Below, one piece after another: positions 1,605 through 38,815 of a stretch of DNA of 64,000 nt. The notes under the pieces are model-generated. The model had not been told where the DNA came from, made no database searches, and saw nothing but the letters and a program-made list of their open reading frames with translations. This stretch comes from a phage, in the NCBI GenBank assembly GCA_036253495.1, contig GCA_036253495.1_4125.1. The stretch is one strand, 5' to 3'. Position 1 is the stretch's first letter, and every line of letters starts with the position of its first letter. A program made the translations under genes and the position numbers.

Positions 1605-1635
1605 AAGCCTGTCTATTGACAGGCTTTTCTTTTAT
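1605..1635 (+). terminator. rho-independent terminator
   Basis: aagcctgtc-tatt-gacaggctt stem-loop followed by a T-rich run. Confidence 0.6.
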
Positions 1636-1643
1636 CCGTATAA
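1616..1643 (+). promoter_or_regulatory. sigma70-like promoter (TTGACA-16-TATAAT)
   Basis: ttgaca at 1616-1621 and tataat at 1638-1643, upstream of the paralog cluster. Confidence 0.45.
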
Positions 1644-1666
1644 TGCTAAAAAACTAGGAGGAAACT

Positions 1667-33904: not shown

Positions 33905-34306
33905 ATGTCATACAACTATCGTGAACTAGTGGAATCACTAGATGCGATTATGGCAGAAGAAGAAGTTCCTCAAGAAGAAAATGGTATCGTTGTCCAAGAA
34001 GATTCGGACAACGTTATCGTTGATTTACTAAAGGAAATCACTACATCTTTAGTTGCTTTAGTTGATAAAGCAAAAGAAGAAGGTTCTGACCATAAAGAAA
34101 TCGCAGAAAAACTTAAAAAAGCATGTGACATTTTGGCAGATGTGGAATATAATGATGACTTAGAAGCAAAAGACAGTACTAAAGAAATTGAAGAAGATTT
34201 CGGTACTGAAGATATGGCTCCTAAAGTTGACAGTGAAGGTCATCGTAGCTATAAAGTTAAAGATGCTCCTTCTTATGCTGCCAGACAAGGTTTTGTGGGG
34301 ATGTAA
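33905..34306 (+). CDS. hypothetical acidic protein
   Basis: ORF; acidic. Confidence 0.45.
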   Translation: MSYNYRELVESLDAIMAEEEVPQEENGIVVQEDSDNVIVDLLKEITTSLVALVDKAKEEGSDHKEIAEKLKKACDILADVEYNDDLEAKDSTKEIEEDFGTEDMAPKVDSEGHRSYKVKDAPSYAARQGFVGM

Positions 34307-34308
34307 TT

Positions 34309-34653
34309 ATGATACCACAACCCACTAACAGCACTGAATTTCAAAATGAAGTACTTATAAAAGTTAAAGAAGTACATGAATCGGACGCTGAAATCACTGA
34401 CAGAATGCTTCTGATGTCTATTTTTGAAAACTTCAGAACTGGTGGTGGTTTGAGGCTTAGTAAGTATGGATTTATGATTTGTGAAGAAAATAATCTTTAT
34501 GAATTTACAAAAATCCCCTTGCTAAGAGAGTTCAAAAGCTCTATAATATTTACATCGCTTGATAGAATATGTAGAAGTCCTTATTATGTTGATGGCTACT
34601 ACATATATCTCTCCGATGCAATGGTAGTTACTGAATTAACATTGTGTCGGTGA
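34309..34653 (+). CDS. hypothetical protein
   Basis: ORF; no motif recognised. Confidence 0.45.
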   Translation: MIPQPTNSTEFQNEVLIKVKEVHESDAEITDRMLLMSIFENFRTGGGLRLSKYGFMICEENNLYEFTKIPLLREFKSSIIFTSLDRICRSPYYVDGYYIYLSDAMVVTELTLCR

Positions 34654-34717
34654 TGATTTCAAGCAGTTATTTTCGATGCATATGTAGAACGCTTCGAAAA
34701 TAAAAATGAAAAAGATG

Positions 34718-34745
34718 TTGACAGTACAGATTAACGTGATATAAT
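34718..34745 (+). promoter_or_regulatory. consensus sigma70 promoter with extended -10 (TTGACA-16-TGaTATAAT)
   Basis: ttgaca at 34718-34723 and gtgatataat ending at 34745. Confidence 0.55.
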
Positions 34746-34810
34746 GAACGTCACGAAGCAAGATTTCAAAATCACAAGATGTGAGATTGAAAAAGAAAGA
34801 AAAAAAGTTG

Positions 34811-34838
34811 TTGACAAGCCTGAACGATGTGATATAAT
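34811..34838 (+). promoter_or_regulatory. consensus sigma70 promoter with extended -10 (TTGACA-16-TGaTATAAT)
   Basis: Second near-identical copy about 93 bp downstream of the first. Confidence 0.55.
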
Positions 34839-34900
34839 GACCACATCAAGACGGCAAACAAGATTGACCTTTTTAAACACACGGATGATTCACTGAAGAT

Positions 34901-34940
34901 AAGGAACTGATAAGTTAAAATACTTTTAACACAGTTCCTT
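34901..34940 (+). promoter_or_regulatory. leader hairpin (possible attenuator or short-transcript 3' end)
   Basis: aaggaactg ... cagttcctt 9-bp stem with a 22-nt loop, followed by tacttttg. Confidence 0.3.
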
Positions 34941-35005
34941 TACTTTTGCCAACGGATTGGTTATAATATAAACCTAGTTTTTTATCCAACAAAAGGAAAA
35001 TACAC

Positions 35006-36331
35006 ATGAGCGAACAACAAGATATCCTGAACGTAAAACTGACTCCTAAGAAAGCAAAAATGGCTATGGCTCTGGCAGATAAAATTCAGGATAGTCTGAT
35101 GATTTGGGGTAGCCCTGGTATCGGTAAGTCTGCGATTGCACGTCAATACGCTGACGAGAACTATCCTCTTCGTAAGGATAACTTGGCTAAAATCGAGTTC
35201 ATGAAACAACAAATTGAAGTTGATACTGAAAATGCTGATGCACTTCGCCGCGAACTGGCAGCGTTTGAAGCAAAACTGATTGACCAAGACACTAACTTCA
35301 TCGACTTCCGTTTGTCACAGATTGAACCAAGTGACCTACGTGGTATCCCAGTCCCTGAAAAAGTGTTCCTGGATATGGATGGCAAACAACTGATTGAATC
35401 TGAACTGGAAACAGCTAAAGATTACATTGCTGAAACAGCAGTTGTATGGGCAGCACCTAAAGTACTGAAACTGTCTCCAGATTGGAAAGGTGTTATCCTG
35501 TTTGACGAAATTAACTCTGCTATGCCGATTGTACAGGCAGCGTCTTATCAGCTAATCCTCGACCGTTGTGTTGGTGAGATGAAGCTACCTAAGACTGCAC
35601 TGATTCTCGCAGCAGGTAACCGTGAAACTGATGGCGGCGTAACGTTCTCTCTGGCAACGCCACTACGTGACCGTATGACCCACATCGAAATGGTTCCTTA
35701 CCATCAAGATTGGATTGACGATTACGCGATTGCTAAGCGTTTGAACCCAGGTACTGTTGCGTTCATCAACAACACTGGTGCTAAGTACTTCAACACCCTT
35801 AGCCCACAAGATCCTTCTCACAGTGGTGGTACTTCTCCACGTTCATGGGAAGCAGTAGCACGCTACGAAGACCTGAAGAAAGGCAACAACATTGATAAAG
35901 AAGTGTTCCGTGCTCTAATCGCTGGTCGTGTTGGTGAAGGTGTAGCAACTGAATATATCGAATACGTAGAAAACGTATCTAAACTACCAGATACTATGTC
36001 CATCCTACAGGGTGAGATTAAAGAGATTGATGCAACGCTGGATATTTCTGCGAACTACTTCATCTCTCTGAATCTGGTTTATAAAATTATCGACCTGTAC
36101 AATGAGAAGCAAGAACAACGTCTTCCAGTTGAAGAGTGGGGCAAGCTGTGCAACAACTTCATCACCTTCCTGGACCGTAACTTCTCCGAAACTCAGGCAG
36201 AACTGGCAGTACTAGCAATTCGTACCATCACTCAACATAAGGTAGCGATTGCGTACAAAGATGTTCCAGCGTTCAAAGACTTCGTTATGAAGTACTCTGA
36301 CCTAGTACGCAAAGCACGTTCTCTTGGTTAA
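35006..36331 (+). CDS. MoxR-type AAA+ ATPase (AAA_5-like)
   Basis: Walker A GSPGIGKS, Walker B VILFDEINSA, sensor-like ILAAGNRE. Confidence 0.75.
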   Translation: MSEQQDILNVKLTPKKAKMAMALADKIQDSLMIWGSPGIGKSAIARQYADENYPLRKDNLAKIEFMKQQIEVDTENADALRRELAAFEAKLIDQDTNFIDFRLSQIEPSDLRGIPVPEKVFLDMDGKQLIESELETAKDYIAETAVVWAAPKVLKLSPDWKGVILFDEINSAMPIVQAASYQLILDRCVGEMKLPKTALILAAGNRETDGGVTFSLATPLRDRMTHIEMVPYHQDWIDDYAIAKRLNPGTVAFINNTGAKYFNTLSPQDPSHSGGTSPRSWEAVARYEDLKKGNNIDKEVFRALIAGRVGEGVATEYIEYVENVSKLPDTMSILQGEIKEIDATLDISANYFISLNLVYKIIDLYNEKQEQRLPVEEWGKLCNNFITFLDRNFSETQAELAVLAIRTITQHKVAIAYKDVPAFKDFVMKYSDLVRKARSLG

Positions 36332-36353
36332 TAACTAAAAGAATGTTTGACAA

Positions 36354-36381
36354 GAAGGATGCCACATGGTATCCTTCTTTT
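36354..36381 (+). terminator. possible intergenic hairpin/terminator
   Basis: gaaggat-(10 nt)-atccttc followed by TTTTAT. Confidence 0.35.
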
Positions 36382-36405
36382 ATCTTAACTAAACGAGGAA
36401 ATATC

Positions 36406-37809
36406 ATGTCCGATAAGAAATTTAGCGACGTAACACCACAACTCCAGAAAGAATGCCAAGACCGTTTGATTCTTGCTCGTACTTCTCTGATGTTAACTGC
36501 TCCATTCTTTGGTGTACTGGCTTCACGTCTGCGTCCAGTTGCAAACAATACATGGTGTCGTACCTTAGCAGTAGATGGTAAACATTTATTCTATAACGTA
36601 GAATTTATCATGGGTATTCAAGACCCAAGCAAGAAAGAAGCATACGAAGAAGCAATTCGTGAGAAGCATCCTGAAGTAACTGAAGAACAATTGAAAGAAA
36701 TGACCGAAGGTTTGACTGATGAAAACCTGATTGCAGTTATCTGTCATGAAATTCTTCACTGTGCATACGATCACTTCCTTCGTCGTGGTATGCGTGACCC
36801 ACAACGCTACAACCGTGCAGCAGACTACGCAATCAACCAAATTATTGTTCGTGAAAAAATTGGTAAGATTCAAAGTCAATGGTTGTATGATAAGAAGTAT
36901 GATGGTATGACCGCCGAAGAGATTTATATTCTTCTAGAAGAAGAAGATAAACAAGATCAAGATGAAGGTGAAGGACAACCACAATCTGGTAGTGGTGAAG
37001 GTGAAGGTAAATCACGCGGTACTTTTGGTGATATCCAAAATGGTAAAGGCAAAGGCACTACCATTGACCAACACGATGTACCACAAGATGGTGAAGGTGG
37101 TGCATCTGAAGCACAAAAACGTGAATACATGGACGATTTCAAAACAGCAATGATGAATGCTGCTCGTGCAGGTGGTACTCCTGCTGAAATCGCTCGTATG
37201 ATCAATAACTTTAAAGAACCAAAAATTGACTGGCGTTCTAAACTTCAACGTACTCTTCGTAGCTGGTTGAAGTCTGATGCGACCTATCAAAGCCCAAGCC
37301 GCCGTTCATGGGGTGCTGGTTTTGGTTCCAATGGTTCATTCTACGGGAATCCAATCTTCCCAGGTATGAAACCAGATGACGATATTGATATTGCAATTGC
37401 ACTCGATGCATCAGGCTCTATCAGTGAAGATATGCTTCGTGATTTCATCAGTGAAGTACTAGGCATCACTAAACAATTCAAGCAGTTTAAAATTCGTATC
37501 ATGACATTTGATACTGAAGTTTATACTGTGATGGATTATAAAACTGGTGAAGAACGTAAGATTCTTGAATATCCAGTTAAAGGTGGTGGCGGTACTGACT
37601 TTGAAGCAGTTTGGGTTCACATGAAGCATGACAATTATAAGCCTAAACAGCTTATCATGTTTACCGATGGTGAACCGTGGCAGTCATGGGGTGATCCTAA
37701 CTACTGTAAAACACTGTTTGTGATTCACAGTAACCCGAACAAAGTAGCACCATTTGGTGAAACTGTTCACTACGAATATGAAGCGGACAAAAAACGCCAA
37801 CGTTCGTAA
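36406..37809 (+). CDS. VWA-domain protein with N-terminal HExxH metallopeptidase-like domain (MoxR partner)
   Basis: HEILHCAYDH motif; VWA MIDAS-like DIDIAIALDASGSIS and later GGGTDF, MFTDGEPW; ATG at 36406 after GAGGA. Confidence 0.7.
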   Translation: MSDKKFSDVTPQLQKECQDRLILARTSLMLTAPFFGVLASRLRPVANNTWCRTLAVDGKHLFYNVEFIMGIQDPSKKEAYEEAIREKHPEVTEEQLKEMTEGLTDENLIAVICHEILHCAYDHFLRRGMRDPQRYNRAADYAINQIIVREKIGKIQSQWLYDKKYDGMTAEEIYILLEEEDKQDQDEGEGQPQSGSGEGEGKSRGTFGDIQNGKGKGTTIDQHDVPQDGEGGASEAQKREYMDDFKTAMMNAARAGGTPAEIARMINNFKEPKIDWRSKLQRTLRSWLKSDATYQSPSRRSWGAGFGSNGSFYGNPIFPGMKPDDDIDIAIALDASGSISEDMLRDFISEVLGITKQFKQFKIRIMTFDTEVYTVMDYKTGEERKILEYPVKGGGGTDFEAVWVHMKHDNYKPKQLIMFTDGEPWQSWGDPNYCKTLFVIHSNPNKVAPFGETVHYEYEADKKRQRS

Positions 37810-37820
37810 AAATAAATATA

Positions 37821-37848
37821 GAGAACGATTCGTCGTTCTCTTTTATTT
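37821..37848 (+). terminator. rho-independent terminator
   Basis: gagaacga-ttcg-tcgttctc hairpin followed by TTTTATTTT. Confidence 0.6.
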
Positions 37849-37854
37849 TATAAT

Positions 37855-37883
37855 TGGGACAACCCAATTAACTATGATATAAT
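37855..37883 (+). promoter_or_regulatory. promoter with extended -10 (TGGGAC-17-TATAAT, TGaTATAAT)
   Basis: Third member of the TGGGAC promoter family. Confidence 0.5.
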
Positions 37884-37916
37884 GGAAATTGTAATAACAT
37901 ACATGGAGAGTAATAT

Positions 37917-38159
37917 ATGAGTACTGAAAACAATGCACAAGACGAAGTAATCCTAGACCTAGTTGACCTAATCAACGCTGCTCGTATTATGGAATCTGCG
38001 GTTGCACGTAATGCGTTTCAAGTTGATGAACTAGTGAACGTAGCACCAATTGTTTCCAAGTTCGTTAAATTTGCTGATAAAGCACTTGCTGATATCAAAG
38101 AACGTGAAGAAGCTGCTGCTCAAGCACAAGATACCGCTGGTACAGAAGGGGAAGAATAA
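37917..38159 (+). CDS. hypothetical acidic protein
   Basis: ORF downstream of the promoter. Confidence 0.5.
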   Translation: MSTENNAQDEVILDLVDLINAARIMESAVARNAFQVDELVNVAPIVSKFVKFADKALADIKEREEAAAQAQDTAGTEGEE

Positions 38160-38815
38160 TGGCTGCTATTCGTCACACAGGTGTAATTCGTAATACTGGT
38201 TCTCGTGTTTTCGTTGTTTGGCGTTCACTTCCAGATGATCATGATCATTGTCTAGTTGTGTATCGTGACTCACTTCCAGAAGCATATGTATCTGCTGTAA
38301 CCGATTTAGTTATGGGTCGTGGACAAGCTTCTGTTGAACTTTGGGAAGTTATGCATCAAGTAGGTTATCTCGATGGTCGTAAAATGCTAGATGTTCTTCA
38401 CAATCTACAATATCTACGTAAAGTCCGTACTTGTGATATTGACATGCACACTGGCGGTAACAACAAGATTTCACTTGATGTACTGAATGATGCAATCGAC
38501 GGTAATGAAAGTAAAAAACATGAAGATGGTAAAGTAAAAGATTACAACCCATTCAATCCACAAGTTCAAGATACAAAAGTCGAAGATGAAACTATTGTTG
38601 ATGAACTACTAAAAACTGCTGCAAAATATGATCAACTAGCTAAAGAGCATTATGAGCGTGCTTATAACCTAGAACCTTCTCTTCGTCCCAACGAAACGAA
38701 TGTGAAAACTGATTCTGATAAGAAAGTTTTTTACATTGAACTTCCAGAAGGTATTTCTCAAACCAAAGCAATTGAGAAACTAAAACTTGTTTTTGCAGAG
38801 CGTAAGAATGGCTAA
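38159..38815 (+). CDS. hypothetical protein
   Basis: ORF with ATGG overlap. Confidence 0.5.
   Translation: MAAIRHTGVIRNTGSRVFVVWRSLPDDHDHCLVVYRDSLPEAYVSAVTDLVMGRGQASVELWEVMHQVGYLDGRKMLDVLHNLQYLRKVRTCDIDMHTGGNNKISLDVLNDAIDGNESKKHEDGKVKDYNPFNPQVQDTKVEDETIVDELLKTAAKYDQLAKEHYERAYNLEPSLRPNETNVKTDSDKKVFYIELPEGISQTKAIEKLKLVFAERKNG

What the first reader, a model, noticed from the sequence alone, without database searches (positions are those of the whole stretch)
34680..37809. MoxR-type AAA+ ATPase plus VWA/HExxH partner behind two tandem consensus promoters and a leader hairpin
Two near-identical TTGACA-16-TGaTATAAT promoters lie 93 bp apart (34718 and 34811), followed by a 9-bp-stem hairpin (34901-34940), then the ATPase gene and its VWA partner carrying an HEILH metallopeptidase-like motif. 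MoxR/VWA pairs act as chaperone-like remodelling modules and recur in phages without a defined role. The tandem promoters plus hairpin suggest strong, possibly attenuated expression or short leader transcripts.
Basis: partly seen in the sequence, partly recalled or inferred. Interest (0 to 1): 0.5.

Follow-up and report, generated by a model that had tools for sequence, protein, structure and literature searches.

The report
MoxR-VWA operon behind attenuated tandem promoters
A giant E. coli phage carries an already-described chaperone-like ATPase and protease/adaptor gene pair, and comparison with relatives predicts that strong host-type promoters drive it through a conserved leader holding a terminator and a small GGA-loop hairpin.

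Summary
The window is 99.8% identical to Escherichia phage A4, an Asteriusvirus jumbo phage of the RaK2-like group.

The genes are a divergent MoxR-class AAA+ ATPase and a partner with DUF2201_N (HExxH) and VWA domains. They are homologues of phage N4 gp24/gp25. Iyer et al. 2021 already described this pair for this group of jumbo phages, so the gene pair is not new.

Comparison with relatives adds these points:
- P1 and P2 are a 93-bp tandem duplication of a consensus sigma-70 promoter. Copy number is 1 in RaK2, 2 in Asteriusvirus and 3 in SP27.
- The "leader hairpin" is a terminator-like hairpin with a T-tract. It sits downstream of an extended -10 promoter in all 22 RaK2-like leaders sampled, and its stem covaries.
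- In 19 of the 22 it is followed by a 4-5 bp hairpin with an A(U/C/A)GGAU loop. This matches the CsrA-binding motif, a link that is untested.
- A second terminator-like hairpin lies between the two genes in 13 of 14 lineages.

The best reading is graded, attenuated expression giving more ATPase than partner. No transcript data exist. The finding is of modest interest.

The parts
34718..34745 (+). P1: consensus sigma-70 promoter TTGACA-16-TGaTATAAT with an A-rich upstream tract. Predicted transcription start is about 34752/3.
   Evidence: 12/12 match, TG present. Conserved in Asteriusvirus and, as the only copy, in RaK2 and Muenster.
34811..34838 (+). P2: a paralogous copy of P1, 93 bp downstream. 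Predicted start is A34845, giving an initial transcribed sequence AUCAAGA like that of the phage's other consensus promoters.
   Evidence: Present in all Asteriusvirus relatives, absent in RaK2 and duplicated again in SP27.
34764..34792 (+). Small hairpin in the P1-P2 interval (UUUCAA..UCACA AGA UGUGA..UUGAAA), followed by an A-run, so not terminator-like.
   Evidence: -8.9 kcal/mol. Conserved only within Asteriusvirus. Function unknown.
34881..34885 (+). 5' ANGGA motif (ACGGA, in the context ACACGGAUGA), 16 nt upstream of the terminator stem.
   Evidence: By my reading of the table, most of the 22 leaders carry an A-N-GGA at the equivalent place. Resembles the CsrA site consensus. Binding is inferred only.
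34901..34948 (+). T1: leader terminator-like hairpin (34901-34940) plus T-tract UACUUUUG (34941-34948). Predicted to end P2 and P1 transcripts at about 104 and 196 nt, or to attenuate read-through.
   Evidence: Present in 22 of 22 RaK2-like leaders with covarying stems. Annotated as an ARNold terminator in phage G17. A covariance model of it also picks up the phage's ordinary gene-end terminators.
34949..34960 (+). Mini-hairpin CCAA-CGGA-UUGG: a 4-5 bp stem with an A-NGGA-U apical loop, directly after the T-tract.
   Evidence: Present in 19 of 22 leaders with compensatory stem changes: 80% of cells paired against 56% in shuffles, 0 of 500 shuffles as high. RNAalifold does not predict it. It is not enriched genome-wide. 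AUGGA in apical loops is the CsrA CLIP-seq motif.
34939..34967 (+). P3: weaker promoter-like site TTTACT-17-TATAAT. Its -35 hexamer is the T-tract of T1 and its spacer holds the mini-hairpin.
   Evidence: 10/12 match, no TG. The -10 hexamer is kept in Asteriusvirus, is TATCAT in RaK2, and has no counterpart in the CBB, pEa50 or SE_PL types. Its status is uncertain.
34993..34998 (+). Shine-Dalgarno sequence AAGGAA of the ATPase gene, which is itself an ANGGA.
35006..36331 (+). MoxR-class AAA+ ATPase, 441 aa, homologue of N4 gp24. Walker A GSPGIGKS is at 35108-35131, Walker B ILFDEI at 35495-35512, sensor-1 AAGNRE follows. It carries two insertions specific to the jumbo-phage forms (about residues 53-97 and 116-147).
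36352..36386 (+). T2: intercistronic terminator-like hairpin (12-bp stem, -17.4 kcal/mol) followed by UUAUCUU.
   Evidence: A hairpin with a T-tract occupies this position in 13 of 14 lineages, with unrelated stem sequences. Annotated as a terminator in phage Muenster.
36406..37809 (+). Partner protein, 467 aa, homologue of N4 gp25: an N-terminal zincin-like DUF2201_N domain (HEILHCAYDH at 36745-36774), an acidic/Gly-rich disordered linker, and a C-terminal VWA domain with a full MIDAS motif (DASGS at 37405-37419, T397, D421).
37820..37841 (.). T3: a 9-bp hairpin flanked by T-runs on both strands; ends the operon.
   Evidence: Annotated as a terminator in G17 and Muenster.

Best explanation
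This is the two-gene MoxR-VWA remodelling module of RaK2-like jumbo phages, homologous to N4 gp24/gp25.

Proteins: the hexameric AAA+ ATPase is inferred to grip the VWA domain of a partner that also carries a conserved HExxH zincin domain. ATP hydrolysis would then drive remodelling, and probably cleavage, of an unknown phage or host target.

Transcription: the host sigma-70 polymerase reads the module from extended -10 promoters. In Asteriusvirus these have been upgraded to full consensus and tandemly duplicated (P1, P2).

Leader: transcripts first meet a conserved intrinsic terminator, T1, so most are predicted to end as RNAs of about 100 and 195 nt. Only a fraction reads on into the ATPase gene.

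Between the genes: a second terminator, T2, lowers partner expression relative to the ATPase. This would fit the hexamer-to-one-partner architecture of known MoxR-VWA complexes. T3 closes the unit.

A GGA-loop hairpin just after T1 is a further conserved element of the read-through leader, most plausibly a protein-binding site.

Shown here: the sequence elements, their conservation and covariation, and the domain and fold assignments. Inferred: promoter activity, termination, stoichiometry tuning and the biochemical role.
For: Identity and homology:
- 99.8% identity to phage A4; synteny is kept across RaK2-like phages.
- RaK2 and Muenster records annotate the genes as N4 gp24/gp25 homologues.
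- The pair was described by Iyer et al. 2021.
- The VWA gene follows the ATPase gene in 91 of 104 loci sampled.

ATPase class.

Partner: HExxHxxxxH and the MIDAS residues are invariant in 17 sequences down to 41% identity, and the C-terminal domain has a VWA fold.

Promoters:
- Both match 12/12 with TG.
- About 31 such sites occur in the genome, 30 on the + strand, clustered in regions of small genes, against my composition-based estimate of about 1 by chance.
- The same class was reported as early RpoD-like promoters with UP elements in phage CBB.
- P1 and P2 are paralogous; copy number is 1, 2 or 3 in different relatives.

Leader:
- The other consensus promoters mostly have 16-53 nt leaders without terminators, while this locus has 160 and 253 nt with T1.
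- T1 occurs in 22 of 22 leaders, always downstream of an extended -10 promoter.
- Covariation over both leader helices: 87% of cells paired against 73% in shuffles (0/500), 10 of 15 pairs changed on both sides, slid controls 19-51%.
- RNAalifold independently finds the stem, with 5 compensatory pairs.

T2 is conserved with unrelated stems.

Stoichiometry precedent: the NorQ hexamer takes one NorD VWA finger into its central pore.
Against: - No transcription-start or 3'-end data exist for any RaK2-like phage in the literature searched. Promoter use, timing and termination efficiency are therefore unmeasured.
- The T-tract of T1 in A4 is interrupted (UACUUUUG) and the stem is AT-rich (-12.9 kcal/mol), so termination could be weak.
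- T1 could exist mainly to end the upstream late structural operon.
- P3, if active, would bypass the whole leader.
- Early-type promoters sit awkwardly with the published virion-assembly proposal.
- The ATPase homologue was found in phAPEC6 virion preparations, which could mean a structural role or only high abundance.
- The target and function of the protein pair are unknown in every phage.
Confidence: 0.55

Rival explanations
1. The leader is a CsrA-responsive riboregulator or a CsrA decoy. Host CsrA/RsmA would bind the conserved A-NGGA-U apical loop after T1 together with the 5' ANGGA and, in A4, the AAGGAA Shine-Dalgarno sequence. Binding would tune termination or translation of the ATPase mRNA. 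Alternatively, the abundant transcripts from P1 and P2 could titrate CsrA.
For: - The mini-hairpin occurs in 19 of 22 leaders. Its loop is AUGGA, ACGGA or AAGGA, closed by an A-U pair, with compensatory stem changes.
- CLIP-seq defined CsrA sites as AUGGA/ANGGA in apical loops of hairpins.
- A 5' ANGGA is also conserved, and A4's ACACGGAUGA resembles the SELEX consensus RUACARGGAUGU (my own knowledge).
- All named hosts are Enterobacterales, which have CsrA/RsmA (my own knowledge).
- The motif is specific to this locus, not a genome-wide feature.
Against: - GGA is a short motif and no binding data exist.
- The mini-hairpin lies after the T-tract, so terminated short RNAs would lack it, which weakens the decoy version.
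- CBB-type phages have no GGA in their Shine-Dalgarno sequence.
- RNAalifold does not predict the weak helix.
- Another RNA-binding protein, or a ribosome standby role, would fit equally well.
Confidence: 0.2
2. T1 is simply the terminator of the upstream late structural operon. The promoters happen to sit before it because the intergenic space is compact. P3 or read-through supplies the ATPase mRNA, and the leader has no regulatory meaning.
For: - T1 looks like the phage's ordinary gene-end terminators: the covariance model also hits the one after the major capsid gene.
- In CBB the -35 element overlaps the stop codon of the upstream gene.
- In A4 the order T1 then P3 is the usual terminator-then-promoter order, also seen at T3 and the next promoter.
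Against: - In every lineage the extended -10 promoter is upstream of T1, although 56-79 nt of free space lie between T1 and the start codon.
- CBB, pEa50 and SE_PL types have no promoter-like site after T1.
- Asteriusvirus has duplicated the promoter upstream of T1 rather than strengthening P3.
Confidence: 0.2
3. The hairpin is an RNA processing or stabilising element rather than a terminator. This would resemble the RNase III sites that follow the tandem A1-A2-A3 promoters of T7, or a 5' stem-loop that protects the mRNA.
For: - In Asteriusvirus the structure is a 16-bp bipartite stem with an internal loop.
- The arrangement of tandem strong promoters followed by a structured leader resembles the T7 early region (my own knowledge).
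Against: - In most lineages the stem is only 8-11 bp with a 4-6 nt loop. By my own knowledge that is too short for RNase III.
- The stem is always followed by a T-tract, which is the signature of an intrinsic terminator.
Confidence: 0.07

Closest known systems
Phage N4 gp24 (ATPase) / gp25 (vWFA), and the MoxR-vWA(+metallopeptidase) pair of group 2.2 jumbo phages (Iyer et al. 2021)
   Same: The same two families in the same order. RaK2 and Muenster records cite N4 homology. Both genes are among the 14 core genes of N4-like phages. The metallopeptidase-vWA fusion was noted for exactly this group of jumbo phages.
   Different: - The jumbo versions are about 80 aa longer, with two insertions in the ATPase and an insertion plus an acidic linker in the partner.
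- N4 transcribes these as middle genes with its own polymerase, whereas this locus has host-type promoters.
- No earlier description of the leader was found.
Bacterial MoxR-VWA systems: NorQ/NorD, CbbQ/CbbO, RavA/ViaA
   Same: - NorQ and CbbQ are the best structural matches of the ATPase model.
- The partner has a VWA domain with a full MIDAS motif.
- The gene order is adjacent, ATPase then VWA.
   Different: - Sequence identity is only 12-15%.
- The partner carries a zincin HExxH domain that NorD, CbbO and ViaA lack.
- The target is unknown.
- The ATPase has an extra helical C-terminal domain.
Tandem strong sigma-70 promoters (T7 A1/A2/A3; E. coli rrn P1/P2; T5 early promoters)
   Same: Closely spaced, same-strand, near-consensus promoters with A-rich upstream elements ahead of one transcription unit (own knowledge).
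   Different: - The copies here are recent paralogues whose number varies among relatives (1-3).
- They are followed by a terminator before the first gene.
Leader attenuators and CsrA-bound 5' leaders (for example the pgaA and glgC leaders)
   Same: - A promoter-proximal terminator sits in the 5' leader.
- ANGGA motifs are present, one of them in an apical loop.
   Different: - I looked only briefly, by eye in A4, for an alternative antiterminator pairing and saw none.
- No binding was shown.
- No Rfam family matches the region.
CLCA1-type zincin protease plus VWA proteins
   Same: The same domain pairing of HExxH protease and VWA. The CLCA1 VWA domain is the top solved fold match of the C-terminal domain.
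   Different: CLCA1 is a eukaryotic secreted protein with no AAA+ partner. The resemblance is at domain level only (16% identity).

Membership tests
MoxR-class AAA+ ATPase | AAA+ core with Walker A, Walker B and sensor-1 motifs | tested here: met
   GSPGIGKS, ILFDEI and AAGNRE are present. G38, K41, S42, E168 and N205 are invariant and D167 nearly invariant in 53 homologues.
MoxR-class AAA+ ATPase | Match to the MoxR family models (Pfam AAA_3 / AAA_5) | tested here: inconclusive
   The window protein scores AAA 21.0 bits (cutoff 21.2) and AAA_3 17.7 bits (cutoff 27), with no AAA_5 match. Of 17 aligned homologues, 8 match AAA_3, 7 match AAA_5 and 3 match bpMoxR.
MoxR-class AAA+ ATPase | Closest solved folds are MoxR proteins | tested here: met
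   The top Foldseek PDB hits are NorQ (1e-7, target-normalised TM 0.56-0.62) and CbbQ2. The family profile hits Midasin AAA domains at 4e-16.
MoxR-class AAA+ ATPase | Adjacent VWA-domain partner gene | tested here: met
   The partner gene follows in 91 of 104 loci sampled.
MoxR-class AAA+ ATPase | Hexamer formation and ATPase activity | not testable with these tools
   Requires biochemistry.
DUF2201_N / DUF2201 (COG3864-type predicted metallopeptidase-VWA) | Both Pfam domains score above their gathering thresholds | tested here: met
   DUF2201_N scores 123.8 bits (cutoff 23.2) and DUF2201 73.9 bits (cutoff 26.4).
DUF2201_N / DUF2201 (COG3864-type predicted metallopeptidase-VWA) | Conserved HExxH zinc-binding and catalytic motif | tested here: met
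   H114, E115, H118 and H123 are invariant in 17 sequences at 41-80% identity. Catalysis itself was not tested.
VWA domain with MIDAS | DxSxS...T...D metal-ion-dependent adhesion site and a Rossmann-like VWA fold | tested here: met
   D334, S336, S338, T397 and D421 are invariant. The fold matches CLCA1 and integrin I domains.
HNH endonuclease (the label carried by many database records and PHROG 1314) | HNH (beta-beta-alpha-metal) domain | tested here: not met
   No HNH family appears in the Pfam scan; only DUF2201_N, DUF2201 and VWA do. The label appears and is best treated as a mis-annotation.
Sigma-70 consensus / extended -10 promoter | -35 TTGACA, a 16-18 nt spacer, TGn and -10 TATAAT | tested here: met
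   P1 and P2 both match 12/12 with TG. This class is over-represented and strand-biased in the genome.
Sigma-70 consensus / extended -10 promoter | Initiation by E. coli RNA polymerase holoenzyme at these sites | not testable with these tools
   No transcript data were found.
Intrinsic (Rho-independent) terminator (T1, T2, T3) | Stable stem-loop immediately followed by a U-tract | tested here: met
   T1's U-tract is interrupted in A4 (UACUUUUG) but cleaner in other genera (CUCUUUUG, UUCUUUUU).
Intrinsic (Rho-independent) terminator (T1, T2, T3) | Evolutionary maintenance of the pairing | tested here: met
   T1. T2: the position is conserved with unrelated stems.
Intrinsic (Rho-independent) terminator (T1, T2, T3) | Transcript 3' ends in the U-tract | not testable with these tools
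   Needs Term-seq or Northern blots.
CsrA/RsmA binding site | ANGGA, preferably AUGGA, in the apical loop of a short hairpin, with at least two sites per target | tested here: met
   The sequence and structure criterion is met: the loop is A-NGGA-U in 19 of 22 leaders and a 5' ANGGA is also present (motif definition).
CsrA/RsmA binding site | Binding by CsrA and CsrA-dependent regulation | not testable with these tools
   No data. This is a lead, not a membership claim.

The most novel reading that the evidence does not exclude
The roughly 100-nt region from the promoter through T1 and the GGA-loop hairpin is an undescribed, conserved cis-regulatory leader or small RNA of RaK2-like jumbo phages. 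It would couple expression of the MoxR-VWA module to the host CsrA/RsmA system or to a phage RNA-binding protein. Promoter duplication (1 to 3 copies) would then be a recent way of raising leader-RNA output.
Probability: 0.2. Interest if true: 0.6.

Novelty: new member of a known kind. Interest (0 to 1): 0.38.

Why it matters
The gp24/gp25-type MoxR-VWA pair is one of the few genes shared by N4-like podoviruses, rV5-like myoviruses and RaK2-like jumbo phages. The ATPase alone is found in 823 phage records, yet the pair has no known function.

A conserved, three-terminator expression design and a locus-specific leader RNA element give concrete handles for study. They predict when the two proteins are made and in what ratio. 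They also point to a possible link with host post-transcriptional control.

On the practical side, P1 and P2 are natural full-consensus promoters. The widespread 'HNH endonuclease' label on the partner should be corrected.

Tried and rejected
- Rfam (E-value mode) over 34300-38200 gave only a chance snoRNA-like match.
- A leader peptide: the 50-codon ORF at 34744-34896 starts inside the -10 of P1, and I compared its frame by hand with EcMJ only, where an indel shifts it. The short ORFs near the GGAT motifs differ between phages.
- A replication-origin reading: GC and AT skew show nothing special at the locus.
- The GGA-loop hairpin as a genome-wide motif: 162 occurrences against about 166 in shuffles. 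Covariance-model hits elsewhere are plain terminators without the mini-hairpin.
- The leader motif in distant jumbo phages (ATPase about 30% identical): no convincing matches to the model (best E-values about 0.04-0.5), although several have their own promoter plus hairpin.
- CBB-type TGAAAC promoters in A4: essentially absent.
- PA5oct ncRNA003 as an experimental precedent: it is not adjacent to the ATPase homologue.
- Direct sequence search of the Protein Data Bank with either protein found nothing useful.
- No promoter or transcript data were found in the RaK2 and phAPEC6 papers.


Full report
**Source of the window.** Bases 34300-38000 are 99.8% identical to Escherichia phage A4 (ON286972, 355 kb, genus Asteriusvirus). 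They are 84-88% identical to 121Q, PBECO4, G17 and related phages. In A4 the two genes are annotated 'ATPase' and 'VWA domain-containing protein'. They lie after a run of + strand structural genes. After them come small hypothetical genes, a DprA-like gene and thymidylate synthase.

**Check of the observation.** P1 (34718-34745) and P2 (34811-34838) are both TTGACA-16-TATAAT with a TG extension and A-rich upstream tracts, and they lie 93 bp apart.
- Only three 12/12 sites occur in the 64-kb window.
- I overlaid the A4 record on the window and counted about 31 such sites, 30 of them on the + strand. They cluster in regions of small genes at 15.8-23.6 kb and 314-334 kb, and several share the initial transcribed sequence ACAUCAA with P2.
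- My estimate from base composition is about one site by chance. The overlay is not perfectly colinear with the record, so counts near the joins may be off by one or two.
- The same class, RpoD-like with an UP element and concentrated in putative early regions, was reported for the related phage CBB.
- The hairpin at 34901-34940 folds as 9 + 7 bp, -12.9 kcal/mol.
- The partner carries HEILHCAYDH at 36745-36774.
- Its real start is most likely 36406, which is the annotated start and has a GAGGAAA ribosome-binding site. The 36343 start overlaps an intergenic hairpin.

**The proteins.**
- The ATPase matches PHROG 1297 'ATPase' at 6.5e-106 but only grazes Pfam AAA.
- Homologues at about 32-35% identity and about 360 aa, the size of the N4-like forms, hit AAA_3, AAA_5 and bpMoxR.
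- A family profile finds Midasin AAA domains (4e-16).
- An AlphaFold model (pLDDT 87) has NorQ and CbbQ, both MoxR ATPases that work with VWA partners, as its best solved matches.
- The partner is DUF2201_N (1.3e-35) plus DUF2201/VWA (1.6e-20).
- In 17 homologues down to 41% identity, H114, E115, H118 and H123 and the MIDAS residues D334, S336, S338, T397 and D421 are invariant.
- The C-terminal domain has a VWA fold.
- The common database label 'HNH endonuclease' has no support in the domain scan.

**What is already known about the pair.**
- RaK2 and Muenster records identify the genes as homologues of N4 gp24 and gp25.
- These are two of the 14 core genes of N4-like phages. They are middle genes of unknown function.
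- Iyer et al. 2021 described this MoxR-vWA pair, with the N-terminal metallopeptidase, in group 2.2 jumbo phages. They proposed a role in virion assembly and proteolytic processing, by analogy with the MoxR-vWA system that an Acidianus virus needs for its tail.
- The ATPase family occurs in 823 phage records.
- The phAPEC6 homologue was detected in virion preparations.
- The gene pair is therefore a known kind with an unknown job.

**The promoters in relatives.**
- The intergenic region aligns across Asteriusvirus and Alcyoneusvirus.
- RaK2 and Muenster have P1 only, Asteriusvirus has P1 and P2, and SP27 has a further exact 95-bp copy of the P2 unit.
- The P1 and P2 units are paralogous over about 100 nt (score 65 against 28.7 +/- 4.8 for shuffles).
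- More distant genera keep an extended -10 promoter at the same place with a different -35 element: GGGACA in SE_PL-type phages, and GTGAAAC(G) in CBB, pEa50 and the Yersinia phage. The latter is CBB's published 'divergent RpoD-like' class.

**The leader.**
- The other consensus promoters in the genome mostly have leaders of 16-53 nt with no terminator-like hairpin. This locus has 160 and 253 nt.
- In all 22 RaK2-like leaders I collected, the promoter is followed by an 8-12 bp stem and a T-tract, 56-79 nt before the start codon. The set comprises phage records and metagenomic contigs with ATPase identity of 54-100%.
- Stems differ by compensatory changes, for example AAGGAACUG, AAGGCACUG, AAGACACUG, AAAGCACAGC and AAGGCUCC.
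- On alignment A3, 87% of cells pair against 73% in shuffles (0 of 500 as high). Ten of 15 pairs change on both sides, and slid controls give 19-51%.
- RNAalifold finds the stem on its own, with five compensatory pairs.
- G17's authors annotated it as a terminator.
- A covariance model of it also finds ordinary terminators elsewhere in the phage, such as the one after the major capsid gene.
- I therefore read the 'leader hairpin' as an intrinsic terminator, T1, placed after its own promoter.

**The GGA-loop hairpin.**
- In 19 of the 22 leaders a 4-5 bp hairpin with the loop A-(U/C/A)GGA-U directly follows the T-tract. In A4 it is 34949-34960, CCAACGGAUUGG.
- The arms covary: CCAA/UUGG, GCUU/AAGC, CUCAA/UUGAG, UCAGA/UCUGA and CAAA/UUUG.
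- 80% of cells pair against 56% in shuffles (0 of 500 as high). Measures that count pairs or pair types are not significant, and RNAalifold does not predict this weak helix.
- An ANGGA is also usual 10-20 nt before T1.
- The element is not a genome-wide motif, and Rfam has nothing here.
- AUGGA/ANGGA in apical loops is the CLIP-seq-defined CsrA site. That link is a hypothesis only.

**Inside and after the operon.**
- A hairpin with a T-tract lies between the ATPase and partner genes in 13 of 14 lineages, with unrelated stem sequences. In A4 it is 36352-36379, -17.4 kcal/mol. Muenster annotates it as a terminator.
- T3 (37820-37841) ends the unit and is followed by the next extended -10 promoter.

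**Interpretation.** Host-type promoters drive the module through two partial terminators. The promoters are strengthened and duplicated in Asteriusvirus.
- T1 would set the level of expression and produce short leader RNAs of about 104 and 196 nt.
- T2 would lower the partner relative to the ATPase. This fits the architecture in which one VWA finger enters a MoxR hexamer pore, as in NorQ-NorD.
- P3 (34939-34967) is a weaker site specific to Asteriusvirus and Alcyoneusvirus that would bypass the leader. Its status is uncertain.
- Rival readings are a CsrA-responsive leader, a terminator that serves only the upstream late operon, and an RNA processing site.
- All of these could be resolved by mapping transcript ends, which has not been done for this phage group.

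**Verdict.** The gene pair is already described. The conserved leader terminator, the GGA-loop hairpin and the intercistronic terminator are new observations of modest interest.

Noticed in passing
window 37852-37869: A perfect 7-bp inverted repeat, AATTGGG-ACAA-CCCAATT, lies directly after terminator T3. It overlaps the -35 (GGGACA) of the next extended -10 promoter (37856-37883), ahead of the gene at 37917. It could be an operator or an RNA hairpin.
   Followed up: no
window 36406-37809, and database records of relatives: Many GenBank records and PHROG 1314 label the VWA/HExxH partner 'HNH endonuclease'. The Pfam scan gives only DUF2201_N, DUF2201 and VWA, so this looks like a propagated mis-annotation.
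   Followed up: partly
L004 (phage SP27) 3547-3958; L100 (Vibrio phage 2.275.O) 2249-2501: SP27 carries a third promoter copy, an exact 95-bp duplication of the P2 unit. The Vibrio relative has its own duplication of about 150 bp, covering a promoter-like site plus a hairpin, in the same leader. This suggests that this leader is duplicated recurrently.
   Followed up: partly
window 34309-34653 and 38159-38815: Homologues of the small upstream gene (PHROG 15638) lie upstream of the ATPase gene in 32 of 104 loci. Homologues of the 218-aa downstream gene (PHROG 15894) lie downstream of the VWA gene in 37 of 104 loci, including relatives whose copy is only about 30% identical to it. The conserved module may therefore be larger than two genes.
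   Followed up: partly
window 35006-36331 (ATPase), residues about 53-97 and 116-147: The RaK2-like forms carry two insertions that the ~360-aa homologues (N4-like size) lack. In the model these are a helical hairpin after the Walker A helix and an extended beta-hairpin.
   Followed up: no
window 1616-1644, and A4 record 116258: Perfect TTGACA-17-TATAAT promoters with near-identical flanks appear at two places about 4.2 kb apart in my overlay of the window on ON286972. The overlapping ends also disagreed (219 mismatches). Either this is a repeated promoter-gene unit, or the window and the A4 record differ by an indel.
   Followed up: no
window 34764-34792: A small conserved hairpin lies between P1 and P2 and is followed by an A-run, so it is not a terminator on this strand. 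It is kept in all Asteriusvirus relatives.
   Followed up: no
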